13,459 nucleotides of DNA from a virus: the UHGV virus genome UHGV-0077154; one strand, given 5' to 3'. This document shows, piece after piece, positions 1 to 13,459 of this stretch. The stretch's first letter is position 1. Every line of letters begins with the position of its first letter. The notes beneath the pieces are model-generated. The model made no database searches. It saw only the letters and a program-made list of their open reading frames with translations, and was not told the origin of the DNA. The position numbers and the translations under genes were made by a program.

Positions 1-54
1 GAACGAGAGCTTCCCAAGCTCTATACGAGGGTTCGATTCCCTTCGCCCGCTCCA
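1..54 (+). tRNA. glyU: 3' portion of tRNA-Gly (anticodon CCC), truncated by the window edge; also the tRNA side of attL
   Basis: GAACGAGAGCTTCCCAAGCTCTATACGAGGGTTCGATTCCCTTCGCCCGCTCCA matches my memory of the 3' two-thirds of E. coli glyU. Anticodon stem AGAGC/GCTCT with loop TTCCCAA (anticodon CCC at 13-15), T-arm GGTTCGATTCC, encoded CCA ending at 54. The 5' part lies outside the window. Confidence 0.9.
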
Positions 55-61
55 GTCTCCT
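2..61. repeat. attL copy of the direct repeat (tRNA-Gly 3' end plus 7 nt downstream)
   Basis: Identical to 13376-13435. Similarity continues for 24 more nt with 3 mismatches (62-85 vs 13436-13459). Base 1 (g) continues the authentic tRNA body (..TAGAACGAG). Confidence 0.9.
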
Positions 62-621
62 GATAAATCAACAAGTTATGATTTATCAGTTAGTTACGTT
101 GCCCCGCTTTAGCAGGTACAACTTAAACTACCCATTGTTCTACGCCCGCACCTGTCGCGTGATTGGTCTGTGGTACAAGGGAGCATATCATCACGCTGGC
201 GGTGGTTCCAAGTTCTTACCGCGACAGTACAACAACGAACAAAAAGCCGCATACCTGGCATAACTCCCGAACTGATTGATCACACGCATTTAAGCCCGAT
301 GTGTGGCCCTATGAGCCACGTAAACAGGTGAATAGTGGTAATGCCCCGGTAGCTACAGATCCGGCTCTGCCAGCGCTTCGCTCACGCTCCGAAAGGTACA
401 CGAGCACCCTGATAAGGTGTGATCCATCTGACAATCTGATGATGTCGCTACGCTCCGCTTGTTGCTTGTACCACTAACGGGGCTTTATGGTTTCTATTGA
501 CTTAAATTAGATAGTTGCAAGGAAATAAACTAAGGATAATTTAAGTGTTGAGCGGTTTACTCATACTGCTTGAGGGCAGTATCATTACAACATTAATGGG
601 ATTTTTAAGGGACTGATGTGA

Positions 622-1257
622 ATGGCTGAGTATCATCCTGCGGTATTTAATGCTGAGGCTTTTAACTGTCCTTACTGCGGTGTATATGCCCGTCAGTTCT
701 GGCGCAATTTGTTTGGTAGCGGAAATGCGTTGGCAACTGTTGCGACTGCGTTCCGTATGTCAACATGTTCTCATTGTGATGAAGATTCTTATTGGTATGA
801 GGGCAATATGATGGTCCCTGCTGCTGGAAATGTGGAACTACCTAGTCCTGACATGCCTGAAGACTGCAAGTTCGACTATATGGAAGCAAGAAGCATCGTT
901 AATCTGTCCCCTAAAGGTGCTGCTGCACTCCTTCGCCTGAGTCTGCAAAAACTGATGGTCCACCTTGGCGAACCGGGTAAACATATTGACACGGACATAA
1001 AATCTCTCGTGGCTAAAGGCTTGTCTCCGTTGGTCCAAAGAGCCGCAGATATTTGTCGCATTGTCGGTAATCAGGCTGTTCACCCCGGAGAAATTAATCT
1101 TGATGATGACCCGCAATTAGCACATGGCCTCTTCAAATTACTGAATATTATTGTCACGGAACAAATTACCAGACCCAAAGAGGTTGAAAAGATGTTCAAT
1201 AGTATGCCTGAAAGGGCGTTGAAGGGTATTGAAAACAGAGATAAACCTAAAACTTAA
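622..1257 (+). CDS. Zn-ribbon + DUF4145-like (HEPN-related?) protein, 211 aa; candidate defence/abortive-infection cargo
   Basis: ATG at 622 is preceded by AAGGGA (607-612). The N-terminus has paired CxxC motifs (CPYC...CSHC). The C-terminal helical region [11 protein letters not shown]...IKSLVAKG...[16 protein letters not shown] fits the DUF4145 signature (R..GN.A.H) as I remember it. A possible promoter is TTGCAA (515-520), 16-bp spacer, TAATTT (537-542). Confidence 0.7.
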
Positions 1258-1261
1258 ACTG

Positions 1262-1277
1262 AGGGGCTTAAGCCCCT
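1262..1277. terminator. Perfect 16-bp palindrome AGGGGCTTAAGCCCCT between convergent genes (possible bidirectional terminator)
   Basis: GC-rich hairpin lying between the stop of 622-1257 (+) and the stop of 1283-2101 (-). The flanking T/A runs are short (TTTA downstream), so strength is uncertain. Confidence 0.45.
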
Positions 1278-1282
1278 TTAGA

Positions 1283-2101
1283 TTATTCAGAAAACCAAAT
1301 TTCTGGCCGTCTAAACTCCTTATTCTCAATAAAAAACAGAATATCTTTCCAGGCTTCTTCATTTTCTTCCCAGAATTTTTGTTTTTCATTCATTGTAAGG
1401 ACTTTACTATCATCTATTAACTTCTTGAGAATAGCAGGGATATCTTTATAGGGTTTTTTCCAGAAGGCATTACGTAATTCTTCAATTTCTGCATTTGCAT
1501 CCCGAACGGGTTTTAGAAGTTCAAGCTGTTTTTCTGTATCGGTAATAGGTTTATTTCCAACCCACTGATGATAGATTTTGCTAGCTTCTTCATGATGACC
1601 CCGAAGAATTGTTATTATTGTTTTTGAGAGTAACGAGCACATGTCAAAAGTAGTAAAGTAAAACCAATCGTGTTTGATTGCGGTTAATTCATCTTTTTTA
1701 ACCCCTATTTGTTCAAGTTCACTCGAAATTGAAGATACTAATTTATAAAGATCTTTGTTTGATGTTGCTGTATCTAGGCGTCCGGTTCTGGAGGCTAATG
1801 AAATAGCTACTTCAGAAATAGGTAAGGAAACTTTTCTTAAACTATCTAAAACTTTTTCAGCATCGTTAATAGTATCTCTTAATTTTGCCTCCATGCCTAA
1901 GAGCTTTATTTCATGCCATTCAAATTGAGTAAGTACCATCAACCCGAAGCCTGTTACAATGACAACAGTCCCTTCAGTTGCTCCTATTGTCAGAGTTACA
2001 ATTACACCAGCGCCTATAAGTAGCAATGCAATGAAAAACAAAAAATTCTTTATCCATTTATTTTTTAGCATATCACTGTCACCATTACGATTAAATTTCA
2101 T
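1283..2101 (-). CDS. AT-rich membrane protein, 272 aa, two N-terminal TM helices plus a helical cytoplasmic domain; function unknown
   Basis: Long uninterrupted ORF in very AT-rich DNA (19 G+C in the 60 nt at 1381-1440). Hydrophobic segments are FLFFIALLLIGAGVIVTLTIGA and VVIVTGFGLMVLTQF, and the remainder is charged and helical. The start is uncertain (ATG 2101 has no clear SD; the internal Met at codon 11 follows GGTGA). Confidence 0.75.
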   Translation of the reverse strand: MKFNRNGDSDMLKNKWIKNFLFFIALLLIGAGVIVTLTIGATEGTVVIVTGFGLMVLTQFEWHEIKLLGMEAKLRDTINDAEKVLDSLRKVSLPISEVAISLASRTGRLDTATSNKDLYKLVSSISSELEQIGVKKDELTAIKHDWFYFTTFDMCSLLSKTIITILRGHHEEASKIYHQWVGNKPITDTEKQLELLKPVRDANAEIEELRNAFWKKPYKDIPAILKKLIDDSKVLTMNEKQKFWEENEEAWKDILFFIENKEFRRPEIWFSE

Positions 2102-2124
2102 CCAATATGAAGTAAAGTAAGTAA

Positions 2125-2334
2125 CTATTTTTCGTTCTCTGATGCCTCAAACGTCTTGGAGTGAGGGCAGGACTGGGAGCGCGTCACCAGCGTGAACAGA
2201 TAAATGTTGCTTTCGTAAGTGCAAAGCCGTTTTCCGCCCTGTAACTCTTGTTCGTCGGGGTTGCTCATGGTGATTTTTCCTGCATGAGCCGCCAGCGGCA
2301 GCAGTGCCACAACAAATAGTAAAATTTTCTTCAT
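2125..2334 (-). CDS. Small secreted protein (about 69 aa) with a Sec signal peptide
   Basis: MKKILLFVVALLPLAAHA/GK is a classic n-h-c signal peptide with an AxA cleavage motif, and the mature part has two Cys. The ORF track starts at GTG 2340; I prefer ATG 2334. It lies 23 nt upstream of, and co-oriented with, the 272-aa gene. Confidence 0.55.
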   Translation of the reverse strand: MKKILLFVVALLPLAAHAGKITMSNPDEQELQGGKRLCTYESNIYLFTLVTRSQSCPHSKTFEASENEK

Positions 2335-3325
2335 TTCCACAACCTGCCCCGTAGGTGTCCCGGCTCTTTATCCTCCAAGTTTACATTCTCCTGTTGAAAA
2401 TATCCCCGGCTCTGTTGGTGATCTGCTAGACCGTCAGCCCAGGCCCTCGGTGAAAAGCGCTTTTCTTCGCCAAATATCGCTACGTTATGCCTTCAGCGAC
2501 ACGCCTCACTGCAACAAGCAGTGCAGTTACACAATGCTGCTTTGGGCTGAGGCAAGGGAGATAACTTGATGTTTTGAAGTGCCTCTGTTCACTAATTGTA
2601 CAACCATTTAACATATTGTATCTTATAAGTACTTGACTGGAATGGTCAGGTATTGCTTTTCGGAGCGTTGATGCGAAGCGGAGTACACAACAACGATTTG
2701 ATCAACAGAAGGAAAGCATTCGGGAGGATTTGAGGTGAGTTCTCTTGTTCAAGGATTTTGGATGAGTTTGTCCGGTCACCACACAATTTCAGGTTTCAGG
2801 CCTTTGAAGCTGCCAGCGCATCTAACACGATGAAAGAGCATTTTTCTCTTTATCAGCAGAAAAAGAGCTACTACGGCGACGTTACCACAACGGGGTGAAG
2901 AACTATCGTCACCTGGCGAAATTCTCCCGCCCTTGCAGGTCACGGATACGTACCTTTTCCCGCACCAGCGCAAGCCTTCTCACCAATAGCCCCGTATGCT
3001 CCACCAGAAGCGCTACAGCGCGTCATCTCCACACAATTGTAAACTACACACCCATAGCACAGCGCCCCGCTGAGAAGCTCTGACACGCCCAGAAATGGAT
3101 GGTTTTTCGTTGATTTTGCGAAGAAAATTAATTTTTTCGGTATGGAAGGGCGGATCGGTAAACTGGTTTGACACGCATTTGGTTGACATATTTAACGCAT
3201 CCAGCCCCTGCGCGGGTTCGTTGTGTATCCGATACCATAACGATCACCACACCACACAGGCGAGCCAGTGACAACAGACAGGATTTTCTAGCAATTAACC
3301 GCAATTAACAGGTATTAAAGCTCTA

Positions 3326-3697: not shown

Positions 3698-3820
3698 AAT
3701 GTTTCCTTTTGTTCACTGATTGAACGAGGTTACTTACTTACCGCTGGAAGTGCCAGCAAGAAGGGATGACGCTGTGCTGTTAATCACTAGGTGAGGGGGT
3801 GTCTTCTACCAGAGGGGAGG

Positions 3821-3915
3821 CCATTGGTAAAGAATCTTAACTAACGTTAGTAAAGATCCTTAACCAGCCATTAGTAAAGAATCTTAACTAACCATTGGTA
3901 AAGATACTTAACCGT
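3821..3915. repeat. Four tandem ~23-24 bp iterons (CCATTGGTAAAGAATCTTAACTAA-type)
   Basis: Copies start at 3821, 3845, 3868 and 3892: ccattggtaaagaatcttaactaa / cgttagtaaagatccttaaccag / ccattagtaaagaatcttaactaa / ccattggtaaagatacttaaccgt. They are contiguous with no spacers. Confidence 0.85.
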
Positions 3916-3917
3916 AC

Positions 3918-4296: not shown

Positions 4297-4410
4297 TTGA
4301 CAAAGAAAATGTATGTGTATAAGGTTGCGGGGTATTGACACAAAACATTTATATCTCTTTATTCATTAAATGAGTTATCGGTTGACAAAGAAACTAATTT
4401 ACTATAAAAT
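4297..4410 (+). promoter_or_regulatory. Three tandem consensus -35 boxes/promoters upstream of the rightward operon
   Basis: TTGACA occurs at 4297-4302 (15-bp spacer, then TATAAG 4318-4323), at 4335-4340 (weak -10 TTTATT 4358-4363) and at 4382-4387 (17-bp spacer, then TAAAAT 4405-4410). The first and third share TTGACAAAGAAA. Confidence 0.55.
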
Positions 4411-4468: not shown

Positions 4469-4897
4469 ATGGGGAAACCTGTTCTGTTCGATTTCTCGAG
4501 CGCCACTGCCTCAGAGATTGTCGCTGCAATCGATGCAAAAATTACCACAGCTCAAAATCTGCACGCCTTCCGCACTCGTATGGGTGGTGCCAAGAAAGCC
4601 GATAAGCTCTATCCAGCTACTCGCGAAGCACTGAACATCATTAAACGCCTGCGTCAGCAAGCGAAAGACGCAAAAATCATCCGGGATATTCTTAAACCGT
4701 ACTCAGCAGAGTTGGCAAAAGGCCGTGATGTTATGGAAATCATTGAACCAGTGCTGTCTGCCTGGCGTGTCTATTACGCCTCTCATGGCATTGGTTTGAT
4801 GAATGAGCAGATCCTCCTGTTGAAAATGATTGAGGCGGGCGGTGAACTCGAAGGTATTACCGGAAAACCCATTCCCGAACTGACCACAACCGAATAA
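4469..4897 (+). CDS. 142-aa helical protein of unknown function; first gene downstream of the triple promoter
   Basis: AGGAGA SD (4458-4463) lies 5 nt before the ATG. The composition is clean and protein-like. I recognise no motif. Confidence 0.8.
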   Translation: MGKPVLFDFSSATASEIVAAIDAKITTAQNLHAFRTRMGGAKKADKLYPATREALNIIKRLRQQAKDAKIIRDILKPYSAELAKGRDVMEIIEPVLSAWRVYYASHGIGLMNEQILLLKMIEAGGELEGITGKPIPELTTTE

Positions 4898-5078
4898 CCA
4901 TTCTCTTCTTTACGGTGCGAAGCACTTTACCAGAGGTAAACACCTCCGGTGCTATTAGCTTTACTCTGTTGGCAGCAACGCCACCAAACGAAATCGCCGT
5001 AAACACGGCTCCTTACCCCTGATCAATTCCATGATCGCAGGGGCGCACCCGCATATCTAACGCACAGGAGAGATGATT

Positions 5079-5264
5079 GTGAAACTGTCACTAGACGATG
5101 AAACATATGCAATTTTACGCGAAGAATCTGACCGTTTGGGGATGCCAGTTCCGAGGATGATCCGGAACATGTGCCAGAACCTGGCGAAACACATTCAGAA
5201 ACGCAATGAACAACCACTGACGAACCCACAGGGAGAACAACATGACAGAGACAGTAGAAGCTAA
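5079..5264 (+). CDS. Ribbon-helix-helix (CopG/Arc-type) DNA-binding protein, about 61 aa
   Basis: KLSLDDETYAILREESDRLGMPVPRMIRNMCQNLAKHI fits beta-strand/helix/helix RHH architecture. AGGAG (5066-5070) is 8 nt from GTG 5079 but only 2 nt from the ATG 5073 used by the ORF track. The 3' end overlaps the next gene by 23 nt. Confidence 0.65.
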   Translation: MKLSLDDETYAILREESDRLGMPVPRMIRNMCQNLAKHIQKRNEQPLTNPQGEQHDRDSRS

Positions 5265-5886
5265 TCTGCCAGACGAACAGGACGGCACTTTTGATCGCAA
5301 TTATACCGAGATTAAGCGCTTGAAAGTGTTGGTTGCCGACGATGGAACTAAAATTCCGTTCAGCGCGAACATGAAAGTAGTCTACGCCTACCTCTACACC
5401 TTCCAGACAAATAAAGAGCGGCGGAACTACCCTGAGCCAATTTATCCTAATATGGAAATAATCGCGTGGGAAAATGGCATTACTAAACCCACGGCGCAAA
5501 AGGCTGTGGATGATTTGATGCGGGCGGGGGTGTTGATTAAGGACCAAATTCAGGTTGGGAGCGGGTTTAAGTCCAACAATTACGTTGTGTTGAAACCCTC
5601 GAAAGTGGTGGCGCGTGGCGTCACTCCACCGCATCCAAATGCTTCTAAATATTCAACTGCCGAGGAGAGCGGTAAGAATGAACAAAAACGTGCTGTGGTG
5701 GAACCTGCCGCGCCTGTTGCTGGAAAACCAGACGGCATACCTGTTGTGGATATTCCTGTCGATGCTGATGTACCTGCCGATGATGATGCGGTGATCGGAG
5801 ACTTTAGTGATCCTTACCTTGATGCTGAAGTAAAAGAATGGCAGAAACAAAAACATAGTGGAGGATTGAATTGTGTGAACACGTAA
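5242..5886 (+). CDS. Winged-helix DNA-binding protein with an acidic/proline-rich C-terminal tail, 214 aa (possible origin-binding/initiator or regulator)
   Basis: GGGAG SD (5231-5235). The core VVYAYLYTF...MEIIAWENGITKPTAQKAVDDLMRAGVLIK looks like a wHTH of the plasmid/phage Rep-type helix-turn-helix family. The C-terminus PVVDIPVDADVPADDDAVIGDF looks disordered. Confidence 0.75.
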   Translation: MTETVEANLPDEQDGTFDRNYTEIKRLKVLVADDGTKIPFSANMKVVYAYLYTFQTNKERRNYPEPIYPNMEIIAWENGITKPTAQKAVDDLMRAGVLIKDQIQVGSGFKSNNYVVLKPSKVVARGVTPPHPNASKYSTAEESGKNEQKRAVVEPAAPVAGKPDGIPVVDIPVDADVPADDDAVIGDFSDPYLDAEVKEWQKQKHSGGLNCVNT

Positions 5887-6347
5887 GCGTTGAACTGACC
5901 GCAGATGAAGAACAAAAGCTATCTCGCCTTTTCTCCGTCCTGGAGAAACCGACATATAAATCCCGATCCAAACCTTCCGATCCGGAAACACAACGCAAAG
6001 CCCGTTTATTGCTTAATCGTGGATTTTCACCGCATATTGTCGCTAATACCCTAGATCTGCCGTTCGCTGAAGTCTGGCGGCTCGCACGTCAAAAACAAGC
6101 GGTGACCTGGGCGATGATGACACCGACAGCCCGGACAGAATTTGTCCGTGAAATGTGGTCACATCGGATGCACCCGGAACAGATCCGCAAGCGTTGCGAT
6201 GGTCTGTCATACGTCAGTCTGAGATATTACCTGCATAACGCCGGGATCACTGACGCTGAAATGTTGGGTTACTACCCAGACGTGTTCGTGAATATCTGCA
6301 AGCTGCCGACAGTGAAGAAGAAGCGCACTAAGTGTAAGGCCCGTTAG
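5871..6347 (+). CDS. 158-aa protein with two HTH-like segments and a basic C-terminus (regulator or packaging-specificity factor?)
   Basis: TTG start has a GGAGGA SD (5860-5865) 5 nt upstream and overlaps the previous gene by 16 nt. Candidate HTH segments are GFSPHIVANTLDLPFAEVWRLARQ and MHPEQIRKRCDGLSYVSLRYYLHNAG. The tail is KKKRTKCKAR. Confidence 0.7.
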   Translation: MCEHVSVELTADEEQKLSRLFSVLEKPTYKSRSKPSDPETQRKARLLLNRGFSPHIVANTLDLPFAEVWRLARQKQAVTWAMMTPTARTEFVREMWSHRMHPEQIRKRCDGLSYVSLRYYLHNAGITDAEMLGYYPDVFVNICKLPTVKKKRTKCKAR

Positions 6348-6414
6348 GGTGAACGTTAACGTTCATCACTTTGTGACCGGATCGCCAATCCAAATAATCC
6401 CACATCGGGAGCCA

Positions 6415-6892: not shown

Positions 6893-9036
6893 TGGCGAAT
6901 GGCAATATCATAGTGACTGAAACCGTAAACGAGGTGACATGGTCTGTCGATCGGACAGCCTTCGGTCGCGCCCTGAAAGCTGTTAAATCCATCAAGGCTG
7001 CTCATGAGAAACCAGCTAAGGCGCTTGAGAAGGCCCAGAAGCGGACCGTCCAGAGTGAAGGCAAAGCCGCACTAGCAGCAGCGAAAGCCCAGACAGCGAA
7101 GCTACGCCAGGCTGAACAATTGTCTAAACAGCAACAGAAACAAGCTCAGATACAAGCCAAAATGGAGCGGGACGCAGTAGCCCACGCCAATAAAATGACC
7201 TCATTACAGGCGCGTCAGTTATCCCAACAGGAACAGGCAGCACGTCAGAATGCCCGTTTAGCAGCAATATCTGAAAAGGTGAGACAGGCGAGTCGCTCCC
7301 GCGCGATGACCTACACCCCAAACATGGGCGGTCAACATTACGATCCTGGTCTTGTTTCCCGTCAGACTGACGCAATGAACCGTGGTCACGGCGCTGTTGC
7401 TGCCGACATCGCAGCCACCAAAAAGGCGATGGCCCTGGAGGAGAAGCGCCAGCGTGAGAAAGAGGCAGGACTTAAGCGTGAGGTGACTTATTACAACAGT
7501 TTGCGCCGTAGCGCTTTGACTCTGGCAAACGTGAACGGCGCTGACGTTGCAACCCGTTATAAAGCGATCAGTGCAGCAAAAGAGGCACTCAAAGCCCAGA
7601 AAGAAGAGCGTTATACGGTCGAAGAGACCCGTTTCGAAATGGCCCGTATCACTACAGAATTACGCAAGCAGGCTCGTCTGCAACAACGTATTACCCGTGA
7701 GCAGAAAGCCGCAGGTGTTCGTGCTGGTCGTGTACGCACAGAAAGCCGTGGTGGAAGTGTAGGTCTGGCTGCCGCTGGTGTTGTTGGTGGTGCGGCGTTA
7801 GTAGGTAGTATGGGCGTTTCTCGTGTTGGTCAGACCCTTCAGGGAAGCCTTGAGCGTTCTCGCGATGTGAAAAAACTCCAGCAGTATGGGATCAGCAACC
7901 TTGAGTTCGCAGCACTTCAGGATCTATCAATGAGCCGTGTTGGTTACTCACTGAGTGCTGACAAGCTGGCTGACCTCAACAAGGACACAACCGAAAAGGC
8001 CGGGGAATTGCTGAATACTGGCTCTTTCAAACGTAACAAGAAAACTGGACAGGTGAATTTCAGCGGCGGTGGTGAGTTTGCAGATATCATCAATAACGTA
8101 CTGACCTCCACCAACGGCAACCAGAAGGTAGCCCAAAAGGTGATCGGGGAACTGCAAAAACTGGATTTTCCAACATTTATCACTTATCTAAAGCAATTAC
8201 AGAAAACTTTCGGCTGGACTGATCGACAGGTGCGACACCTGGCCGAGGCTGTGAATGATGGTTCGGTCTTCCTCGAAGTGTTCAATGATGAGGGGCAGGG
8301 ACTTATCCAGCGTATGAATCAACTCGCTTCTGAAGGATGGACCCTATCTGATGCACAGCAGGCCAACCTTGATAAGCTGGCAGCTTTGGGTGCTGAGTAC
8401 AGTCGCGTGCAGATGTCGCTTGCTGACCACTTCAGCGCCAGCTTCGTGCAGGGTCTGGGAGAATATGCAGCTAATACTGACACTCTACGTCAGAAGATGA
8501 CTGGACTGATCCCAATTTCCGATGCTCTCGGCGTTGCCCTTGGTGAGCTAACCACCAACATTCTCTCCTTCGCTGGTCGAGTCGGTGAAGAACTCAAGAA
8601 AGGCGCGACACTGCCGGATGCAGTCTACAACACCGTAGTGGATGACTCTGCAAATAGCACCGCCGATTGGATTAAGGAAAAGACCGGATTTGATCCACGC
8701 AGCATCGGTCAGACGCTCAAACAGATTTACCCGTGGCTGGATAGTTTCGCTCCGAGCAATATCGGCTCAGGCACGGCGTATAACGATCCAGCGCTAGCGT
8801 TGAATGTTCCTGGTTTCAACTCAATACAACCCCAGCAACCAACGTTTACGATTCCGACAATTGACAGCATGACGCAGCGACAGCCGATTCCTGTTGCGGT
8901 CACTGGCGAAGCTGAGATTAAACTCTCACCGCTTGATATTAACGTGAATGACGGCGCTATTAACGGTTTGATTGATACAAAACTGAGGAGCTATGAGCAG
9001 GCACAGAACAACATGATCCTTGGTATTGCTCAATGA
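6892..9036 (+). CDS. 715-aa coiled-coil + glycine-zipper TM + tape-measure-like domain protein
   Basis: Roughly residues 30-290 are Q/A/K/R-rich heptad-like sequence. GGSVGLAAAGVVGGAALVGSMGV is a Gly-zipper hydrophobic segment. The next ~200 aa (LADLNKDTTEKAGELLNTGS...GGGEFADIINNV...LKQLQKTFGWTDRQVRHLAEAVNDGSVFLEVFNDEGQGL...LSDAQQANLDKL) resemble the conserved core of phage tail tape-measure proteins as I recall it. Confidence 0.8.
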   Translation: MANGNIIVTETVNEVTWSVDRTAFGRALKAVKSIKAAHEKPAKALEKAQKRTVQSEGKAALAAAKAQTAKLRQAEQLSKQQQKQAQIQAKMERDAVAHANKMTSLQARQLSQQEQAARQNARLAAISEKVRQASRSRAMTYTPNMGGQHYDPGLVSRQTDAMNRGHGAVAADIAATKKAMALEEKRQREKEAGLKREVTYYNSLRRSALTLANVNGADVATRYKAISAAKEALKAQKEERYTVEETRFEMARITTELRKQARLQQRITREQKAAGVRAGRVRTESRGGSVGLAAAGVVGGAALVGSMGVSRVGQTLQGSLERSRDVKKLQQYGISNLEFAALQDLSMSRVGYSLSADKLADLNKDTTEKAGELLNTGSFKRNKKTGQVNFSGGGEFADIINNVLTSTNGNQKVAQKVIGELQKLDFPTFITYLKQLQKTFGWTDRQVRHLAEAVNDGSVFLEVFNDEGQGLIQRMNQLASEGWTLSDAQQANLDKLAALGAEYSRVQMSLADHFSASFVQGLGEYAANTDTLRQKMTGLIPISDALGVALGELTTNILSFAGRVGEELKKGATLPDAVYNTVVDDSANSTADWIKEKTGFDPRSIGQTLKQIYPWLDSFAPSNIGSGTAYNDPALALNVPGFNSIQPQQPTFTIPTIDSMTQRQPIPVAVTGEAEIKLSPLDINVNDGAINGLIDTKLRSYEQAQNNMILGIAQ

Positions 9037-9132: not shown

Positions 9133-9161
9133 TTGTAAATGATAATCATTCGTGTTAAAAT
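9133..9161 (+). promoter_or_regulatory. Candidate sigma70 promoter with extended -10, heading the capsid-gene leader
   Basis: -35 TTGTAA (9133-9138), 17-bp spacer, TGTTAAAAT (9153-9161; TGn + TAAAAT), inside an AT-rich stretch just after the 715-aa gene. Confidence 0.45.
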
Positions 9162-9511
9162 AATATACAAGGTGAATTACAACAGCCAAATGTTTTTCCC
9201 TTCTCCTTAGGAATCAAAGTGCGCTTTTCCCAGAGCGCCTTTTCTCATACAGCCAATATCCGCACCCTCTCACGGTAAGGTTAGGCCATTGCCGCTGGCT
9301 GTATCAGAAAAGCATCGCAGAGCGATTAGCCAGCAGGCTAACCCGTTCTCGTGTGTAGAAAATTTCCACCTAAGGTGGATTTGCCAAAAGTCCTGTCCTC
9401 CTCGGCGGGCTGTCAGCCGGACACTAACGGCATCAGGTGGCAACGTTTTTGGGTCTCCTTACCCATTCTTTGGAGCGTTGCCGCCTCCTCATTCCTACCA
9501 GTGAAATTCAC

Positions 9512-9542
9512 ACCGGACGACTCTCCGTCCGGTCACTTTTTT
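9512..9542 (+). terminator. Intrinsic terminator candidate t1 in the capsid leader
   Basis: Stem ACCGGACG (9512-9519) pairs with CGTCCGGT (9526-9533), loop ACTCTC. CAC follows, then a T6 run (9537-9542). Confidence 0.5.
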
Positions 9543-9557
9543 CATCGGAACAATTCT

Positions 9558-9610
9558 AAAGGCTGGCCCTGTCGCCGTTTACGGCTCAAGCAGGCGCTGG
9601 CCTTTTGTTT
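9558..9610 (+). terminator. Intrinsic terminator candidate t2 (long GC-rich compound hairpin + U-run) just before the capsid-gene RBS
   Basis: 9561-9571 pairs with 9591-9602 (one bulge, two G-U pairs), with an inner hairpin GCCG-TTTA-CGGC (9574-9585). AAA (9558-9560) can pair with the following T-run, and TTTTGTTT lies at 9603-9610. Confidence 0.55.
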
Positions 9611-9645
9611 ACATAGCTATGTGAAATTTAACGGGAGTTAATTAT

Positions 9646-9987
9646 ATGAAAATGGGAAGCCTTGAGCGCTCTTACAATGACGTGATCGCGTATGCAGCCG
9701 ATCCGAATTTTGACCGCAAGACTATTACTGTCGATCTAGCTGTAGAAGTCCAGCCGGGTAGTTGCATTACCAGCACTGGAGCTGCTTATGTCTCTGGTGA
9801 TGACTGCCTGCTGGTCCTGAGCCACCACAGGGCCGAAGATGCTGCTCATATCATCGTTGCTGATCGCGGGATTTACATCAAACAAGACACCATCACCGCT
9901 GTTATGGGCGCTACCGCTGGCGCTAATGCTATTGCCGCACTCACCAAAACGGGCGCAATCCGTACTAGCGCACCGGACGCAGAATAA
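9646..9987 (+). CDS. Head decoration protein, lambda gpD-like, 113 aa
   Basis: GGGAG SD (9633-9637) is 8 nt from the ATG. Size, position immediately upstream of the gpE-like gene, and the pattern ...GDDCLLVLSHHRAEDAAHIIVADRGIYIKQDTI...TGAIRTS parallel lambda gpD (...[31 protein letters not shown]...GTAISIV, from memory). Confidence 0.6.
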   Translation: MKMGSLERSYNDVIAYAADPNFDRKTITVDLAVEVQPGSCITSTGAAYVSGDDCLLVLSHHRAEDAAHIIVADRGIYIKQDTITAVMGATAGANAIAALTKTGAIRTSAPDAE

Positions 9988-10005: not shown

Positions 10006-11040
10006 ATGGGACTATCAACCAATTTCAGCTACGCGGATTACACCAACACCTTTGTGAACATGGATGCAAAGAACACTTTGCTGTCCACGCTTAATGTTTT
10101 CAGTGATCGTCAGACTTCTGCAAGTCCGAAGGTGAGCCTCGATATCATTGATGAAGTCGCTCAGAAGGTGGCAAGCTCTGTTAATCGTTACGGTTCAGAG
10201 TGGTCAACCATTCCTAAGCGTAGCGCTAGCAATCACCTGATTGAAGCTCCACTTTATGCTTTTCAAGACCGGATTACAGCGGCAGACGTGCAACCATATC
10301 GCAAACCAGGCTCCGACCTGCAAATGTCTGTAATGGATGCGGTCACTTCTTCTGCTGTCGCAATGCACGATAAGTACATGCGTACTAAAGAGAAAATTTT
10401 CGCTGACGCACTCTTCCGAAATACTGTCGAAGCGACCTACACCCAGCAGCCGATCATTTCCTGGGAAGATGAATTTGGATACCAACAGGCAACCGGAACG
10501 ATCAAAACCAGCGTTAGCTCTGGTGACCCACTTCGCAGCCTCGATGATGCAGTAACCGCTGCTAAAGTGCGCATGGGGGGCCTGGCTGGTCAGCTTGATG
10601 GATTTATCCTGTTTGCAGGTAGCAATGTTTATCGCGGCATTAAGTATCACCCTGATGTTCGTCAGAATGTTCAGTTCGGTGTGCTTGATCGGGATGTTCT
10701 GTTTAATAAAGAAGTGCTTCCGGCATTCTCAACATTCATCATTGAAAATGTTCGAGTGGTGGAGGTCACGGATCAGGCACTTTACGGAATTGGTCCGGAT
10801 GAATCCTTCCTGGTTCCACGTTTCAGCCGCCCACTGTCCTCTGATATTGCTCTACCTTTCGGTTATGTAGCAACGGCTACCAGCCGCAATCTTGATCTGG
10901 CATTTGCTGATCCGGTTGATTTCCGTATCTGGAGCGTACAGGACAAGTTTAAGAACGTGGAGCTATTCGCGGAAAGCTCAATCTTGCCTGTGGTGTACCG
11001 TCCGGATTTCGTTACAAAACTGACGAACGACGCAGCGTAA
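10006..11040 (+). CDS. Major capsid protein, lambda gpE family-like, 344 aa
   Basis: AAGGAGAA SD. The length is close to lambda gpE (341 aa). It sits directly after a D-like gene. The C-terminal ...ESSILPVVYRPDFVTKL resembles gpE ...SAPLMLLADPDEFVSVQL (from memory). Confidence 0.75.
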   Translation: MGLSTNFSYADYTNTFVNMDAKNTLLSTLNVFSDRQTSASPKVSLDIIDEVAQKVASSVNRYGSEWSTIPKRSASNHLIEAPLYAFQDRITAADVQPYRKPGSDLQMSVMDAVTSSAVAMHDKYMRTKEKIFADALFRNTVEATYTQQPIISWEDEFGYQQATGTIKTSVSSGDPLRSLDDAVTAAKVRMGGLAGQLDGFILFAGSNVYRGIKYHPDVRQNVQFGVLDRDVLFNKEVLPAFSTFIIENVRVVEVTDQALYGIGPDESFLVPRFSRPLSSDIALPFGYVATATSRNLDLAFADPVDFRIWSVQDKFKNVELFAESSILPVVYRPDFVTKLTNDAA

Positions 11041-11121
11041 GACAGCGGATTTTGGGGCTGACTATTTGGCCCCACCGTGAAGAATGGCCTGAAAAGGCGA
11101 GGCAAAGAAGAGGTGATTACT

Positions 11122-11325
11122 ATGAAAATTCAATTTCAGACTAACAACGGCTTCCCGTTGCTGACAGTTGCAGACGAGCGCGTTTTAGATTTTCTGAACG
11201 TTAGCGCAGTGTGTCGGTTCCTGAAGGTTCCGCGTTCCTCGTTCATGATGGACGTTGAGCAATACGGGCTTGAAAAGGCAATCAGTGAAGCCCTGCTGAA
11301 GTTAAGAAAGAATAAAAATTGTTAA
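11122..11325 (+). CDS. 67-aa HTH protein (AlpA/excisionase-like DNA-binding protein?)
   Basis: ATG 11122 follows GAGGTG (11110-11115). LNVSAVCRFLKVPRSSFMMDVEQYG resembles the MerR-type/excisionase HTH pattern. The upstream GTG-11077 extension in the track lacks an SD. Confidence 0.55.
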   Translation: MKIQFQTNNGFPLLTVADERVLDFLNVSAVCRFLKVPRSSFMMDVEQYGLEKAISEALLKLRKNKNC

Positions 11326-11509: not shown

Positions 11510-11719
11510 ATGAACTTTGATATGCGTACAAACCAAAATTGTGCATCTTTTTTTAACCCAGCAACCAAGGCGTTTGTCGTCGTCGATTCGTTTGACAACT
11601 ACGAGTTCGATGTTCGTGCTGGTACTTTATCACGCACTGAATTTGTAGGCACAATCACAGCTTCGAACGATGAAGAGTTGAACAAGAAATTAGCTGAGAT
11701 CACGGCTGCTCATATATGA
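11510..11719 (+). CDS. 69-aa protein, first gene of an overlapping pair (unknown; antitoxin-like position)
   Basis: Strong AGGAGG SD (11499-11504) lies 5 nt before the ATG. The stop overlaps the next start (ATGA at 11716-11719). The gene is AT-rich. Confidence 0.7.
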   Translation: MNFDMRTNQNCASFFNPATKAFVVVDSFDNYEFDVRAGTLSRTEFVGTITASNDEELNKKLAEITAAHI

Positions 11720-12090
11720 TAACTCAACAGCAAATTGATGATTTAGTTGCAGATATTAACGATATCTTAGAAGAAGATAGAGCTAGACTGAAGATGTCAT
11801 TTCATTTTGCTGTTGATAGACTCAATGATCAGCGTAACAAACCTCCAATCACGCTAGATGAATTGAGAGTGATTTTTACAAATTTCATTGAACAACACTT
11901 GCAGACCATTTTAGGCAAAGATGAGGGGTTCTCCTTCACTATTAAGTGCCAGAAATCAGGTATTGCTATACCTTGCGCCATAGAGCATGAACTTGAGATT
12001 GGTGCAACGTGGGTAGTACAGCAAGTGATCACCATCATGCGGAATCCGAACTTTAACCCATACCATGGTGATGTCATCTTCGAAATCTAA
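11716..12090 (+). CDS. 124-aa protein, second gene of the overlapping pair (unknown; toxin/effector-like position)
   Basis: Translationally coupled by the ATGA overlap and followed directly by a strong terminator. I recognise no motif. Confidence 0.7.
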   Translation: MITQQQIDDLVADINDILEEDRARLKMSFHFAVDRLNDQRNKPPITLDELRVIFTNFIEQHLQTILGKDEGFSFTIKCQKSGIAIPCAIEHELEIGATWVVQQVITIMRNPNFNPYHGDVIFEI

Positions 12091-12092
12091 GT

Positions 12093-12118
12093 AAAAAGGC
12101 GCAATAGCGCCTTTTTTT
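12093..12118. terminator. Bidirectional intrinsic terminator shared by the cassette and int
   Basis: AAAAA-GGCGC-AATA-GCGCC-TTTTTTT: a 5-bp GC stem (12098-12102 / 12107-12111) flanked by an A5 run and a T7 run. The int stop codon (12117-12119) lies in the T-run. Confidence 0.8.
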
Positions 12119-13313
12119 ACAAATCCGGATAACACGCCAACTCGACATACTCCGATAGTTCCTTCATCCCTGGCCCTTTGCTGTAGGTTCTGAATGCTTC
12201 GGTTTTCGCTTTTTGTTCGGTATGTCCAGTGATGGCTCCGATCCGTTGTTCTGGCACCCCTGCACGGTCTAAGCAGGTGATGAACATTCCCCGTAAGCTG
12301 TGAAAACATTGCCGATCTGTAGCGGTTGGCAATGTGCTGTCACGTAGCCGGGTAAACTTTTGGCTGTACCACGGACCCCGCTTACCATCCTTCCGAATGA
12401 TGTTATTAGACTGAGCCAGAAGATATTCACCGCTGTTATTTGCCAGATGCTTATCAACAATCCCCATCAGCAGCGAGTGGATCGGAACATACCGCACCCC
12501 GGCTACAGTCTTGGACTTGCTGACAAAGAAACATCTGACACCCTCCAACATTACAATTTCATCCCGCTTGATGCTGGCGATCTCATCAAGTCGCATTCCT
12601 GAATACAGCCCAATCAGTATGACATCGCGTAGAACGTCATCCGCTTCTCTGACAAGTGTTTGCAATTGTTCAGGTTCAAACGGCTGATAACTTTCTATCG
12701 TGCGACGTGCTTCGAGGTTATGACCGTGAAACGGGTTACTGTCGGGGATTGCGTCATATCGACGTTTGGCGAACTCGTACAGACTCCCTAAAGAGGTTAG
12801 CCAGTTTTGCACGGTCTGCGGTGCTGCCTTTTTCTGTTGGCCTTCAATGAAGTCTGTAACCGTTCTGCGTCCTATCTTGTTCAGACTAATATCAACTTTA
12901 CCGATACTCTGGAGAAATACTTCCACCGCTCGCGCGGATTTGCTGAGTGTGGAAAATGCCCGACGTTCACTATAAACCGTCATGTATTCATCACGGATGA
13001 CTGCCAACGTTGGGATAGGGGAGACTGCTACAGGCGTACTCTTGGCCTGTTTGATTGTGGTGTGGAGTGTGGTGATCGCATTCTGGATGCGAATGTCTTC
13101 CCGATCAGGATTCAACAGGGCTTTCAGATTGTTGAACTCAATCAACATGTGATTTCTGAAGTGACGAGCCTTAAGGATGTCTTTTGTCCCGGTGGATTTT
13201 CGCCAGGCTCGTTTGTTGTCAAACAGGTGACGCATGTACGCAGGTACAAAGACCTGAAAGATCCATACGCCCGAATGACTTTGAAAAAGATACTGATTGT
13301 TCTTGATAGACAT
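12117..13313 (-). CDS. int: Tyrosine recombinase / phage-type integrase, 398 aa
   Basis: Catalytic signature visible: ...YSGMRLDEI (Arg), HSLRGMF (His-x-x-Arg), ITGHTE (His), FRTYSKG (Tyr). It sits next to attR with its 5' end facing the tRNA-derived repeat. Confidence 0.95.
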   Translation of the reverse strand: MSIKNNQYLFQSHSGVWIFQVFVPAYMRHLFDNKRAWRKSTGTKDILKARHFRNHMLIEFNNLKALLNPDREDIRIQNAITTLHTTIKQAKSTPVAVSPIPTLAVIRDEYMTVYSERRAFSTLSKSARAVEVFLQSIGKVDISLNKIGRRTVTDFIEGQQKKAAPQTVQNWLTSLGSLYEFAKRRYDAIPDSNPFHGHNLEARRTIESYQPFEPEQLQTLVREADDVLRDVILIGLYSGMRLDEIASIKRDEIVMLEGVRCFFVSKSKTVAGVRYVPIHSLLMGIVDKHLANNSGEYLLAQSNNIIRKDGKRGPWYSQKFTRLRDSTLPTATDRQCFHSLRGMFITCLDRAGVPEQRIGAITGHTEQKAKTEAFRTYSKGPGMKELSEYVELACYPDL

Positions 13314-13375
13314 GATTTCGATCCTCTAAAATCACGCCATCAGGTACAGCCATATGTACAATGTCGGGATGGAGT

Positions 13376-13435
13376 AACGAGAGCTTCCCAAGCTCTATAC
13401 GAGGGTTCGATTCCCTTCGCCCGCTCCAGTCTCCT
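13376..13435. repeat. attR copy of the direct repeat: displaced 3' fragment of tRNA-Gly (13376-13428) plus 7 nt; not a functional tRNA
   Basis: Identical to 2-61. The sequence upstream (..GGGATGGAGT) diverges from the tRNA body (..AATGGTAG), so the acceptor 5' strand and D-arm are missing. Confidence 0.9.
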
Positions 13436-13459
13436 CATAAATTAACAAGTTATAATTTA

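What the first reader, a model, noticed from the sequence alone, without database searches (positions are those of the whole stretch)
1..13459. Whole window is one att-bounded 13.4 kb element: a capsid-encoding but terminase-less satellite candidate at tRNA-Gly
Seen directly: 2-61 and 13376-13435 are identical (60 nt), and the next 24 nt differ at only 3 positions. The left copy continues the genuine tRNA body, while the right copy is a 3' fragment. That is the signature of site-specific integration into glyU with tRNA reconstitution. An intact-looking tyrosine integrase abuts attR. The interior encodes gpD-like and gpE-like head proteins, a tape-measure-like protein, RHH/wHTH/HTH regulators and iterons. 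I can recognise no large or small terminase, portal, prohead protease, tail tube/sheath/fibre, holin/endolysin or primase/helicase, and 13.4 kb is far too small for an autonomous lambdoid phage. From established knowledge of satellite families, P4-like elements carry psu/sid/delta/alpha, PICIs carry alpA plus pri-rep plus terS/ppi/cpm-type genes, cf-PICIs carry a full head-plus-terminase module, and PLEs are Vibrio-specific. None of these layouts matches this gene set. Inference: a helper-dependent satellite of a lambdoid (D/E-capsid) phage, possibly an undescribed family.
Basis: partly seen in the sequence, partly recalled or inferred. Interest (0 to 1): 0.9.

Follow-up and report, generated by a model that had tools for sequence, protein, structure and literature searches.

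The report
Capsid-encoding, terminase-less phage satellite family
The window is one complete 13.4 kb mobile element inserted in a glycine tRNA gene. It belongs to an apparently undescribed family of probable phage satellites that make their own capsid shell, decoration protein and often a tail tape measure, but must borrow a portal, DNA-packaging motor and tail, most likely from large rV5/phiTE/phi92-type lytic phages rather than from lambda-like phages.

Summary
The window is a discrete element bounded by a repeat derived from the tRNA-Gly 3' end, although the true core is about 53 nt, not 60-84 nt. The same element occurs at 99.8-99.98% identity in at least five chromosomal contexts. An E. 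coli relative is a precise insertion compared with empty sites. Repeat-bounded relatives with different integrases and tRNA targets all measure 12.4-13.6 kb.

Core genes are a 142-aa protein, an RHH protein, a wHTH Rep with iterons, a tandem-HTH protein, a beta-tulip decoration protein, a Phage_cap_E capsid protein and a small downstream ORF. About half the members add a tape measure protein. The left end carries defence cargo, here PD-T7-4/RAZR. No ORF is large enough to be a portal or large terminase, and no HMM finds one.

The lambdoid-helper inference is not supported. The capsid protein aligns full length with Vequintavirinae and phi92 capsid proteins but not with lambda gpE. The decoration fold, the tape measure N-terminus and a phiTE-type adaptor in a distant member point the same way.

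A covariation-supported, pseudoknotted RNA leader followed by terminators precedes the capsid genes. I found no description of the family. Helper dependence and packaging are inferred, not shown.

The parts
1..54 (+). 3' part of the tRNA-Gly(CCC) gene glyU (the window begins inside the gene). Positions 2-54 form the attL core.
   Evidence: Rfam tRNA hit at 1-51, cut at the 5' end. The repeat is shown. A full tRNA-Gly sits at the same place in L001 and L020.
55..271 (+). Left arm of the element (attP-derived). It is conserved in other glyU-type members and contains a doubtful 61-aa ORF at 78-263.
   Evidence: It is 86-88% identical in L007 and L020. A diverged copy lies downstream of attR in the source-type genome L034.
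622..1257 (+). Defence cargo: PD-T7-4, also called RAZR, a zinc-finger/HEPN RNase of the DUF4145 family.
   Evidence: PADLOC PDLC04109, E 4e-98, full length. Pfam DUF4145. Function taken from PMC13017515.
1283..2101 (-). Accessory 272-aa protein of unknown function. It is variable in the family.
   Evidence: No family match. Present only in the window and L002 among 18 representatives. Split in L030.
2125..2340 (-). 71-aa protein with a signal-peptide/lipoprotein-like N-terminus.
   Evidence: phrog_4641, E 2e-8. Present in 10 of 18 representatives.
2341..3325 (.). Gene-poor stretch conserved at the DNA level in some members. Function unexplained.
   Evidence: 88% identical in L001 and 94% in L011, despite divergent neighbouring genes. 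No RNA-folding signal on either strand. No phage match.
3326..3697 (-). 123-aa protein transcribed away from the core operon. Function unknown.
   Evidence: phrog_2266, E 1.6e-6. Homologues in L002 and L039.
3820..3916 (.). Four iterons spaced 23-24 nt apart: the putative replication origin.
   Evidence: Repeat family D2. The iteron region is also matched in L003 and L004.
4382..4410 (+). Near-consensus sigma-70 promoter-like site upstream of the core operon.
   Evidence: TTGACA-17-TAAAAT, 11 of 12 positions. This is a consensus match only.
4469..4897 (+). Core gene g06, a 142-aa helical protein of unknown function.
   Evidence: Present in 18 of 18 representatives. No Pfam, PHROG, NCBIfam or PADLOC match.
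5073..5264 (+). Core ribbon-helix-helix protein (weak match).
   Evidence: Pfam RHH_1, E 0.007, below the cutoff. Present in 17 of the 18 representative loci.
5242..5886 (+). Core winged-HTH replication initiator-like protein.
   Evidence: PHROG replication initiation families, E 8e-6 to 5e-4. Homologues carry DUF6945/HTH_36. Present in 18 of 18 representatives.
5871..6347 (+). Core gene g09, a tandem helix-turn-helix DNA-binding protein. It may be a packaging-site binder or a regulator.
   Evidence: AF2 model with pLDDT 75, two three-helix domains. Only generic HTH fold matches, E > 0.3. Present in 18 of 18 representatives.
6349..6892 (+). Two small overlapping genes, g10 (6349-6531) and g11 (6512-6892). 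g11 is Ala/Lys-rich and possibly scaffold-like (inference).
   Evidence: Present in 13 and 14 of 18 representatives. No informative family match.
6889..9036 (+). Tail tape measure protein homologue, 715 aa, mosaic in origin. It is optional in the family.
   Evidence: PHROG tape measure families. Residues 5-50 are 63-69% identical to the tape measure N-terminus of Vequintavirinae. Residues 312-569 are 31% identical to the tape-measure-position protein of a Stephanstirmvirinae phage. phiTE tape measure hit in the PDB. Present in 9 of 18 representatives.
9133..9161 (+). Extended -10 promoter-like site of the capsid operon, conserved across the family.
   Evidence: TG before the -10 element. The TAAAAT block is nearly invariant in alignment A2. 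It is 85-87% identical even in members whose capsid protein is 53% identical.
9168..9645 (+). Highly structured leader RNA of the capsid operon. The conserved pseudoknotted core lies at 9385-9499. It is followed by an intrinsic terminator at 9512-9533 with a T-run and a second hairpin with a T-run at about 9560-9600.
   Evidence: Folding z-score -7.8. The core is found once in every close family locus. 87% of cells pair against 34-51% in slid controls, 21 of 29 pairs show compensatory change, and 0 of 500 shuffles do as well. No Rfam match.
9646..9987 (+). Head decoration protein with a beta-tulip fold, of the gpD superfamily.
   Evidence: 16 of 31 family members hit Pfam HDPD. The AF2 model (pLDDT 80, pTM 0.72) matches decoration proteins of the Bas63, Sf14 and phiTE capsids, then lambda gpD and SHP. 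hhalign against the BIS47 decoration protein gives 52%, against lambda D 0.9%.
10006..11040 (+). Major capsid protein (Phage_cap_E family).
   Evidence: Pfam E 4.6e-14. Full-length hhalign to the BIS47 capsid protein, 97.8%. PDB hits are phi92 gp124 and the phiTE capsid protein. Not alignable to lambda gpE.
11077..11325 (+). Core small protein g15 of unknown function (gene callers start it at 11122).
   Evidence: Present in 18 of 18 representatives. No family match.
11510..12090 (+). Two accessory genes (11510-11719 and 11716-12090) of phage-borne families with unknown function.
   Evidence: phrog_14630, E 4e-39, and phrog_14518, E 1e-63. Present only in this element type.
12117..13313 (-). 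Tyrosine integrase with a DUF6538 N-terminal domain.
   Evidence: Pfam Phage_integrase and DUF6538. phrog_1, E 1e-35. 82-83% identical in other glyU-type members.
13376..13429 (+). attR core, a duplicated 3' fragment of tRNA-Gly. Positions 13430-13459 lie outside the element.
   Evidence: Repeat. Identity between copies in different hosts ends at 13428/13429.

Best explanation
The window is an intact member of a compact (12.4-13.6 kb) family of Enterobacterales mobile elements. The family most likely acts as phage satellites with an unusual division of labour.

Shown:
- The element integrates by a tyrosine integrase into the 3' end of a tRNA gene, restoring the tRNA.
- It spreads intact between hosts.
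- It carries an iteron/wHTH-Rep replicon, defence cargo, and a late module made of a beta-tulip decoration protein and a Phage_cap_E capsid protein. Many members add a tape measure protein.
- The late module sits behind a conserved promoter, a pseudoknotted structured RNA and intrinsic terminators.

Inferred:
- On infection by a helper, the element excises and replicates from its iterons.
- Read-through of the leader terminators switches on the capsid genes.
- The satellite capsid protein and decoration protein build a small shell, sized for about 13 kb, on the helper's portal.
- The helper's terminase fills the shell, possibly directed by the tandem-HTH core protein or an unidentified pac or cos site.
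- The helper's neck and tail complete the particle, with the satellite tape measure incorporated through its helper-like N-terminus.

The homologies place the helper among large lytic rV5/phiTE/phi92-type myophages (Vequintavirinae, Stephanstirmvirinae), not among lambdoid phages.
For: Discrete and mobile:
- The flanking repeat and tRNA are confirmed.
- The identical element, 99.83-99.98% over 13.42 kb, lies in at least five different right-flank contexts, and identity ends at the tRNA CCA.
- For the E. coli relative L001, the joined flanks match genomes without the element at 100% in one piece.

Size and architecture are conserved:
- Repeat-bounded lengths are 12397, 12410, 13117, 13249, 13374 and 13577 bp. 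These members sit at glyU or thrW, with integrases about 40% identical between the two site types.
- Some members have the integrase at the other end, and one variant has ParA and no integrase.
- Seven gene families are present in essentially all 18 representative loci (17 or 18 of 18).
- Members with only 28-29% capsid identity keep the Rep - tape measure - decoration - capsid layout.

Capsid module.

No packaging machinery:
- Pfam, PHROGs, NCBIfam and PADLOC find none.
- The largest unassigned ORF is 272 aa.

Helper lineage:
- The capsid profile matches BIS47 at 97.8% against 0.3% for lambda gpE.
- An exhaustive search of 1.84 billion representatives gave 99 clusters. The satellite-type clusters are followed directly by BIS47-type capsid proteins, and none is lambda-like.
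- The tape measure N-terminus is 63-69% identical to Vequintavirinae tape measures in 72 phage records and matches the phiTE tape measure in the PDB.
- A phiTE-type adaptor domain is present in L037.

Defence cargo is typical of satellites: PD-T7-4 here, and DUF4062, a STAND NTPase, DUF2971 and HATPase_c_3 with Hypoth_Ymh in relatives.

Regulated late module.
Against: - There is no direct evidence of excision, replication, helper induction or encapsidation.
- The IMG/VR hits lie inside larger contigs, so they do not show packaging.
- Capsid identity to any sequenced phage is only about 21-23%, so no specific helper is identified.
- The decoration-protein link to the BIS47 decoration protein is only 52% by hhalign.
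- No cos or pac site, small terminase, scaffold or protease was recognised. It is therefore not explained how a foreign portal and terminase would serve this shell.
- The tape measure protein is absent from about half the members, so its role cannot be essential.
- In 22 E. coli genomes the thrW-type copy has an integrase pseudogene, and L011 has an inversion through the tape measure gene. Some copies are therefore decaying.
- Known helpers of integrated satellites are mostly temperate, so a lytic 140-kb helper would be unusual, although PLE and PICMI are precedents.
Confidence: 0.5

Rival explanations
1. The element is an integrative defence island that uses structural decoys. The capsid, decoration and tape measure proteins are dominant-negative poison subunits that derail assembly of infecting rV5/phiTE-type phages. 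The element itself moves by other routes, such as generalised transduction or mobilisation, and is not packaged in its own capsids.
For: - The cargo end carries proven or candidate defence genes.
- The tape measure has a helper-like N-terminus on an otherwise different body. That suits a competitive inhibitor.
- No packaging functions or packaging site were recognised.
- The capsid genes sit behind terminators, like an inducible response.
Against: - The tight 12.4-13.6 kb size across different integrases, targets and cargo is what a headful or capsid-volume limit predicts. A defence island would not be so constrained.
- A complete capsid protein plus a matched decoration protein, kept as a pair down to 28% identity, is more than a poison subunit needs.
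- Nearly identical copies in different hosts need an efficient transfer route.
- Known satellites combine interference with their own transfer, so this reading is not exclusive.
Confidence: 0.2
2. This is the first reader's version: a satellite of a lambdoid phage with a D/E-type capsid.
For: The capsid and decoration proteins fall in Pfam Phage_cap_E and HDPD, the families named after lambda E and D. The gene sizes (113 and 344 aa) and their order mirror lambda D and E. Lambdoid prophages are common in these hosts (general knowledge).
Against: - The capsid profile does not align with lambda gpE (0.3%), and lambda is absent from the PDB hits.
- The decoration profile scores 0.9% against lambda D. 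In the fold search, lambda gpD ranks below the decoration proteins of Bas63, Sf14 and phiTE.
- No lambda-like cluster appears in the exhaustive capsid search.
- The tape measure and adaptor links are to Vequintavirinae and Stephanstirmvirinae.
- No DNA match to lambdoid late regions was found.
Confidence: 0.07
3. The element is a decayed remnant of a larger prophage that happens to retain head and tail genes next to an integrase.
For: Some copies show decay: an integrase pseudogene in L002, an inversion in L011, a split gene in L030, and a left-arm remnant beside attR.
Against: - No larger relative exists in any collection searched.
- Lengths and gene order are conserved across genera, integrases and targets.
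- Copies that are 99.9% identical sit in different hosts.
- The nearest phage relatives of the structural genes are strictly lytic phages of about 140 kb, and the family's own Rep/iteron core proteins have no match in the phage collection (PMC11972413).
Confidence: 0.03

Closest known systems
Capsid-forming PICIs (cfPICI, for example EcCIEDL933)
   Same: Both are integrative elements of about 13-15 kb in Enterobacteriaceae that encode their own major capsid protein. Both are thought to make satellite-sized capsids and to take tails from a helper. A distant member (L037) also carries a head-tail adaptor.
   Different: cfPICIs encode the whole head-and-packaging set: portal, protease, small and large terminase, HNH, adaptor and connector, plus a PICI-type regulator and primase. 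Tail genes are forbidden in the SatelliteFinder model (PMC10085698). This family has no portal, terminase, protease, HNH or primase. It often has a tape measure gene, uses a wHTH Rep with iterons, and its capsid protein belongs to the Phage_cap_E lineage.
P4-like satellites
   Same: Similar size (median 10 kb). Both integrate at tRNA genes by a tyrosine integrase, can exist in plasmid or integrated forms, carry a defence hotspot, and carry a decoration protein (Psu in P4). Both depend on a helper for the portal, terminase and tail.
   Different: P4 uses the helper's capsid protein and resizes the shell with Sid. Its core is psu-delta-sid, alpA, epsilon and the alpha primase-helicase. None of these is found here. 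This family brings its own capsid protein instead.
PLE (Vibrio cholerae/ICP1) and PICMI (Vibrionaceae)
   Same: Both are integrated satellites whose helpers are lytic phages, which is a precedent for the helper type proposed here. Both carry a Rep/origin replicon and interfere with the helper.
   Different: They are restricted to Vibrio and have unrelated gene sets. PLE remodels hijacked ICP1 coat proteins with TcaP (abstract of PMC10002752). PICMI has no capsid-remodelling genes (abstract of PMC10803314). Neither is described as encoding its own capsid protein.
Head module of Vequintavirinae/Stephanstirmvirinae myophages (phiTE, BIS47, PVP-SE1, phi92)
   Same: The decoration and capsid genes lie next to each other in the same order, belong to the same Pfam capsid family, share the beta-tulip decoration fold, and the tape measure N-terminus is homologous.
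   Different: Those are 137-148 kb lytic phages, and phiTE has a T=13 head. Capsid identity is only about 21-23%. No homologue of the helper's portal, protease or terminase is present in the element.
Small temperate, tailless HK97-fold 'mini' viral genomes from gut metagenomes (bioRxiv 10.1101/2025.06.18.659913)
   Same: Both have a capsid protein plus an integrase and a Rep, with no portal, terminase or tail genes detected, in genomes of about 9-13 kb.
   Different: Those carry encapsulin-like capsid proteins, average 8.9 kb, and come from gut metagenomes with direct terminal repeats. This family has a Phage_cap_E capsid protein with a decoration protein and a tape measure, and lives in Enterobacterales chromosomes.

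Membership tests
tRNA-integrating genomic island / integrative mobile element | A tyrosine integrase, a direct repeat that duplicates the tRNA 3' end, and a precise empty site in related genomes | tested here: met
   The empty glyU site matches the joined flanks of L001 at 100% in one piece. Identical copies end at the CCA.
Phage satellite (general) | Lacks a full set of virion and packaging genes yet is transferred in helper-derived particles | not testable with these tools
   The incomplete gene set is shown. Helper-dependent packaging and transfer need experiments.
P4-like satellites | Core components psu, delta, sid, alpA, epsilon and the alpha primase-helicase, plus an integrase (SatelliteFinder, PMC10085698) | tested here: not met
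   Only an integrase is present. No PHROG, Pfam or NCBIfam match to the other six, and no ORF of primase size.
PICI (Gram-negative type) | An integrase, AlpA, a primase/replicase, and capsid-morphogenesis or packaging-redirection genes. cfPICI-type head components are forbidden in the model. | tested here: not met
   No AlpA, primase or small-terminase/Rpp-type match. The replicon is a wHTH Rep with iterons.
cfPICI | Eleven core components including a large terminase, head-tail adaptor and connector, portal, protease/HNH and capsid. Tail genes are forbidden. | tested here: not met
   Only the capsid protein and integrase are found in the window. A tape measure (tail) gene is present.
PLE | An island restricted to Vibrio cholerae with the conserved PLE marker set | tested here: not met
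   The hosts are Enterobacterales. No shared markers were detected by PHROGs.
Pfam Phage_cap_E (PF03864) capsid proteins | A full-length match above the gathering score | tested here: met
   52.6 bits against a cutoff of 22.9, covering residues 15-340.
Pfam HDPD (PF02924) / beta-tulip head decoration proteins | A family HMM match and the trimeric beta-tulip fold | tested here: met
   The window copy alone has no hit, but 16 of 31 homologues do (best E 2.3e-6). The model matches capsid decoration chains of Bas63, Sf14, phiTE and lambda. Trimer formation was not tested.
Lambdoid (lambda D/E) head module | Capsid and decoration proteins alignable with lambda gpE and gpD | tested here: not met
   hhalign gives 0.3% and 0.9%. 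Lambda gpE is absent from the PDB hits at E <= 1.
Tail tape measure proteins | Homology to tape measure proteins that sit in the tape-measure position of characterised phages | tested here: met
   PHROG tape measure families. Hits lie in the tape measure genes of BIS47 and FBKp34. phiTE tape measure hit.
Rfam RNA families | The leader RNA matches a curated covariance model | tested here: not met
   No match at E <= 1 apart from the tRNA hits and one weak, unrelated STnc40 hit at 12060-12117.

The most novel reading that the evidence does not exclude
These elements would be a new satellite family that parasitises large lytic rV5/phiTE/phi92-type myophages. They would build their own small capsid shell, decoration lattice and, in many members, their own tape measure protein on a stolen portal, packaging motor and tail. 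Their late genes would be gated by a previously unknown pseudoknotted leader RNA that senses the helper, for example through helper-driven antitermination.
Probability: 0.3. Interest if true: 0.9.

Novelty: new variant of a known kind. Interest (0 to 1): 0.78.

Why it matters
If confirmed, this fills a gap between satellites that only reshape the helper's capsid (P4, SaPI, PLE) and those that bring the whole head and packaging kit (cfPICI). It would be an element that supplies the shell, its cement and sometimes the tape measure, but not the portal or motor.

That arrangement would require a foreign capsid protein to assemble on a helper portal. It would give a clean system for studying portal-capsid compatibility and capsid size control.

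It would also be an Enterobacterales satellite of lytic phages of about 140 kb. Several phages of this kind are being considered for therapy and biocontrol, so it could affect how well such phages work and could spread defence genes such as RAZR across genera.

The conserved leader RNA is a new structured RNA candidate with strong covariation.

Tried and rejected
- Prophage remnant: rejected. [quoted passage not shown]
- Q-type or pR'-like late promoter borrowed from lambdoid phages: a resemblance noticed by eye was not backed by any DNA match to lambdoid phages, so I dropped it.
- The leader as a copy of a helper RNA: only a 33-nt match to a non-coding region of PVP-SE1 (E 4e-3), plus a GATTAGCC motif repeated four times there. 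The full RNA motif is absent from the phage loci held. A pattern scan of IMG/VR gave only chance seed matches.
- A protein-coding ORF inside the leader (9351-9641): not called by any gene caller in six identical copies. By my arithmetic, ORFs at that place in relatives lie in inconsistent frames relative to the RNA motif. I treated it as spurious.
- The non-coding stretch 2340-3326 as a structured RNA: no folding signal.
- Core proteins as disguised head or packaging proteins: hhalign of nine family profiles (eight unassigned core and accessory families plus the decoration protein) against all ORFs of the BIS47 structural module matched only the decoration protein. The first run timed out. tblastn of the core proteins against phages found nothing. 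The fold search for the tandem-HTH protein gave only generic HTH hits, with a small terminase at rank 15 and E 1.7.
- A circular plasmid form: contig arithmetic for L003 hinted at a circle of about 12.79 kb. The 12,786-nt contig that seemed to corroborate it (L039) turned out to be a different, integrase-bearing variant, so circularity is unproven.
- PF26210 (Phage_phiTE_211), recorded for a 152-aa homologue, was not reproduced by my own Pfam scan. I did not use it as evidence.

Full report
**1. The observation**

The window is flanked by a direct repeat, 2-85 and 13376-13459. It is 84 nt at 96% identity. The first 60 nt are identical, and the mismatches fall in the last 24 nt (sequence).

Rfam scores 1-51 as the 3' part of a tRNA cut by the window edge (33.9 bits). 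It scores the right copy below threshold (26.2 bits against 29). ARAGORN reports no tRNA only because the gene is truncated by the window. In the relatives L001 and L020 a complete tRNA-Gly(CCC) occupies this position.

A 398-aa tyrosine integrase (Phage_integrase plus DUF6538; phrog_1, E 1e-35) lies next to the right repeat.

**2. Boundaries and mobility**

A look-up of the exact capsid protein sequence found the same element in many assemblies. Six loci (L030-L035) are 99.83-99.98% identical to the window over 13.42 kb, but they have at least five different right flanks. The flanks include MFS/LysR genes, PTS genes, an E. coli-type T3SS region and PA-IL/OmpA genes.

Identity stops at window 13428/13429, the CCA end of the tRNA-derived repeat. 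The att core is therefore about 53-54 nt (2-54/55 and 13376-13429).

In the source-type genome (L034), the DNA after attR is a 91%-identical copy of window 2-271. This is a remnant of the left arm of a related element. No third att copy lies within 7.5 kb.

For the E. coli relative L001, I joined its left flank (through the tRNA) to its right flank. The joined sequence matched genomes without the element at 100% in one piece, and 3376 genomes cover at least 80% of it. That is a precise insertion.

The family is rare in E. coli: 43 of 5426 complete genomes.

**3. A family with a fixed size and architecture**

Relatives occur in Escherichia, Citrobacter, Enterobacter, Pseudenterobacter, Buttiauxella, Winslowiella, Raoultella, Rahnella, Biostraticola and in metagenomes.

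Repeat-bounded lengths are:
- 12397 bp (L024, thrW)
- 12410 bp (L018, thrW)
- 13117 bp (L020, glyU)
- 13249 bp (L001, glyU)
- 13374 bp (window)
- 13577 bp (L002, thrW)

The integrases are only about 40% identical between the two target types. Other members have the integrase at the opposite end, and the capsid module runs straight into chromosomal genes. One variant has ParA and no integrase.

Profile clustering of ORFs from 18 representatives shows six families in all 18: g06 (142 aa), a wHTH Rep, g09, the 113-aa protein, the capsid protein and g15. The RHH protein is in 17. g10 and g11 are in 13-14, and the tape measure protein in 9.

Members with only 28-29% capsid identity keep the layout:
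- L036 has a DUF6945 Rep, a split tape measure gene, a gap, a 109-aa protein and the capsid protein.
- L037 is a 13.8 kb contig with an HTH_36 Rep, a phiTE-type adaptor domain, the capsid protein, a 633-aa tape measure protein and a DUF6538 integrase.

No larger relative was found anywhere. This refutes the variable-length prophage remnant alternative.

**4. Gene content**

- **Left end (cargo).** 622-1257 is PD-T7-4 (PADLOC E 4e-98, full length). This protein has been renamed RAZR and is an RNase activated by phage portal or recombinase rings (PMC13017515). Relatives carry other defence-like genes at this position: DUF4062, a STAND NTPase, DUF2971, and HATPase_c_3 with Hypoth_Ymh.
- **Replicon.** Four iterons lie at 3820-3916. 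A near-consensus promoter-like site lies at 4382-4410. A weak RHH follows, then a Rep-like wHTH protein (PHROG replication-initiator families; DUF6945/HTH_36 in homologues).
- **g09 (5871-6347).** It models as two helix-turn-helix domains (pLDDT 75) and has only generic fold matches.
- **Tape measure (6889-9036).** It is a genuine tape measure homologue and is mosaic. Residues 5-50 are 63-69% identical to the N-terminus of Vequintavirinae tape measures in 72 phage records. Residues 312-569 are 31% identical to the protein in the tape-measure position of a Stephanstirmvirinae phage. The C-terminal part resembles other tape measure proteins. The best PDB hit is the phiTE tape measure.
- **Decoration protein (9646-9987).** 16 of 31 homologues hit Pfam HDPD. 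The AF2 model (pLDDT 80, pTM 0.72) matches the decoration chains of the Bas63, Sf14 and phiTE capsids, then lambda gpD and SHP.
- **Capsid protein (10006-11040).** It is a Phage_cap_E capsid protein.
- **What is missing.** Nothing matches a terminase, portal, protease, tube, sheath, fibre, lysis protein or primase/helicase. The largest unassigned ORF is 272 aa, which is too small for a portal or large terminase.

**5. Which phages are the relatives**

The capsid protein has no close homologue in 50,697 phage records. The best is 21.8% identical.

The family profile aligns full length with the capsid protein of Klebsiella phage BIS47 (Vequintavirinae): hhalign 97.8%, E 9.5e-13. It does not align with lambda gpE (0.3%). 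Against PDB sequences the top hits are phi92 gp124 and the phiTE capsid protein, E about 1e-11 and full length. Lambda is absent.

An exhaustive HMM search of 1.84 billion representative proteins found only 99 clusters. The satellite-type clusters are followed directly by BIS47-type capsid proteins, and none is lambda-like.

In BIS47 the decoration and capsid genes are adjacent and in the same order as here. The decoration profile matches the BIS47 decoration protein weakly (52%, E 1.4e-4) and lambda D not at all. phiTE is a lytic 142 kb Vequintavirinae phage with a T=13 head and a beta-tulip decoration protein (PMC11972413).

The inference of a lambdoid helper is not supported. The structural genes belong to the rV5/phiTE/phi92 lineage.

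The other core proteins have no detectable phage homologues.

**6. A structured leader RNA**

All close family members have 450-650 nt without genes upstream of the decoration gene. In the window this region holds the following features:
- An extended -10 promoter-like site lies at 9133-9161. It is nearly invariant across the family.
- A 478-nt leader folds far better than shuffled sequence (z = -7.8).
- An intrinsic terminator sits at 9512-9533 with a T-run, followed by a second hairpin with a T-run.

A core of about 115 nt (9385-9499) is found exactly once in every close family locus and in none of the phage loci.

I proposed a structure of five hairpin helix segments plus a loop-to-downstream pseudoknot. 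On 18 distinct sequences, 87% of cells pair, against 34-51% when the partners are slid. 21 of 29 pairs show changes on both sides, and 0 of 500 shuffles reach these values. RNAalifold independently found two of the helices. Rfam has no match.

The arrangement of promoter, folded domain, terminators and capsid genes suggests conditional read-through. The trigger is unknown.

A 33-nt piece of the leader matches a non-coding region of PVP-SE1, which also repeats GATTAGCC four times. This link is weak.

**7. Interpretation**

Shown: a discrete, recently and repeatedly transferred, size-constrained element with its own replicon, defence cargo and an incomplete virion gene set.

Inferred: it is a satellite that builds its own small shell and needs a helper portal, terminase, neck and tail. 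The tight length range is what a capsid-volume limit would produce. The helper lineage is inferred from homology only.

The main rival is a defence island whose structural proteins act as decoys. This is compatible with the cargo and with the chimeric tape measure protein. It explains the size constraint and the conserved capsid-decoration pair less well, and the two readings are not exclusive.

**8. Comparison with known families and novelty**

The gene set fails the SatelliteFinder definitions of P4-like, PICI, cfPICI and PLE (PMC10085698).

The closest in concept is cfPICI, because it has its own capsid. But cfPICIs carry a portal, protease, terminases and connectors, and they exclude tail genes.

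Text searches for the domain names, for capsid-encoding satellites and for satellites of Vequintavirinae found no description. The library does not cover all journals, so prior description cannot be excluded.

I rate it a new variant of a known kind (phage satellites), with an untested mechanism.

Noticed in passing
window 9385-9499 (leader 9168-9645): A conserved pseudoknotted RNA motif with strong covariation lies upstream of the capsid genes and is followed by terminators. It is not in Rfam. Hairpin loops and the 3' tail repeat CUCCU-like, anti-Shine-Dalgarno-like sequences.
   Followed up: yes
window 13430-13459 and L034:13424-13645: In the source-type genome, the DNA after attR is a 91%-identical copy of the element's own left arm (window 2-271). 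This is a remnant of an earlier related insertion. No third att copy lies within 7.5 kb.
   Followed up: partly
window 622-1257: The cargo gene is PD-T7-4/RAZR, an RNase reported to be activated by phage portal rings. It is notable on an element that itself lacks a portal and would have to tolerate a helper's portal.
   Followed up: partly
window 2341-3325: About 1 kb without convincing genes is 83-94% identical in several members whose flanking genes differ. Examples are L001, whose capsid protein is only 32% identical, and L011. There is no RNA-folding signal and no phage match. It could be a cis-acting DNA site such as a packaging site.
   Followed up: partly
window 9314-9346; L025:3001-3032 (PVP-SE1 117070-117101): A 33-nt stretch of three small hairpins is 94% identical to a non-coding region of Seunavirus phages. 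That phage region repeats GATTAGCC four times, and the same octamer is conserved in the leaders of several family members.
   Followed up: partly
L003 and L004: A variant has ParA-type partition genes and Rap1a-like genes but no integrase, so it may be a plasmid form of the family. Circularity could not be shown.
   Followed up: partly
L037:6563-7066 and 10379-12280: A distant member (28% capsid identity) carries a phiTE-type head-tail adaptor domain (PF26075). Its tape measure gene lies downstream of the capsid gene rather than upstream.
   Followed up: partly
L002:17988-19193; L011:6715-8108; L030:1278-2065; L036:6817-9177: Some copies show signs of decay. The integrase has an internal stop in the thrW-type E. 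coli locus examined (L002); 22 genomes carry near-identical thrW-type copies whose integrase was not checked individually. An inversion runs through g11 and the tape measure gene in a Citrobacter copy. The 272-aa accessory gene is split in L030, and the tape measure gene is split in L036.
   Followed up: no
window 6889-7038: Only the first 46 or so residues of the tape measure protein are highly similar (63-69%) to Vequintavirinae tape measures, and the rest is of different origin. The protein looks like a chimera built to dock onto a helper tail component.
   Followed up: partly
window 11510-12090: Two accessory genes match phage protein families of unknown function very strongly (phrog_14630, E 4e-39; phrog_14518, E 1e-63). 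They sit in a second variable slot between the capsid module and the integrase. L002 has a GNAT acetyltransferase in that slot.
   Followed up: no
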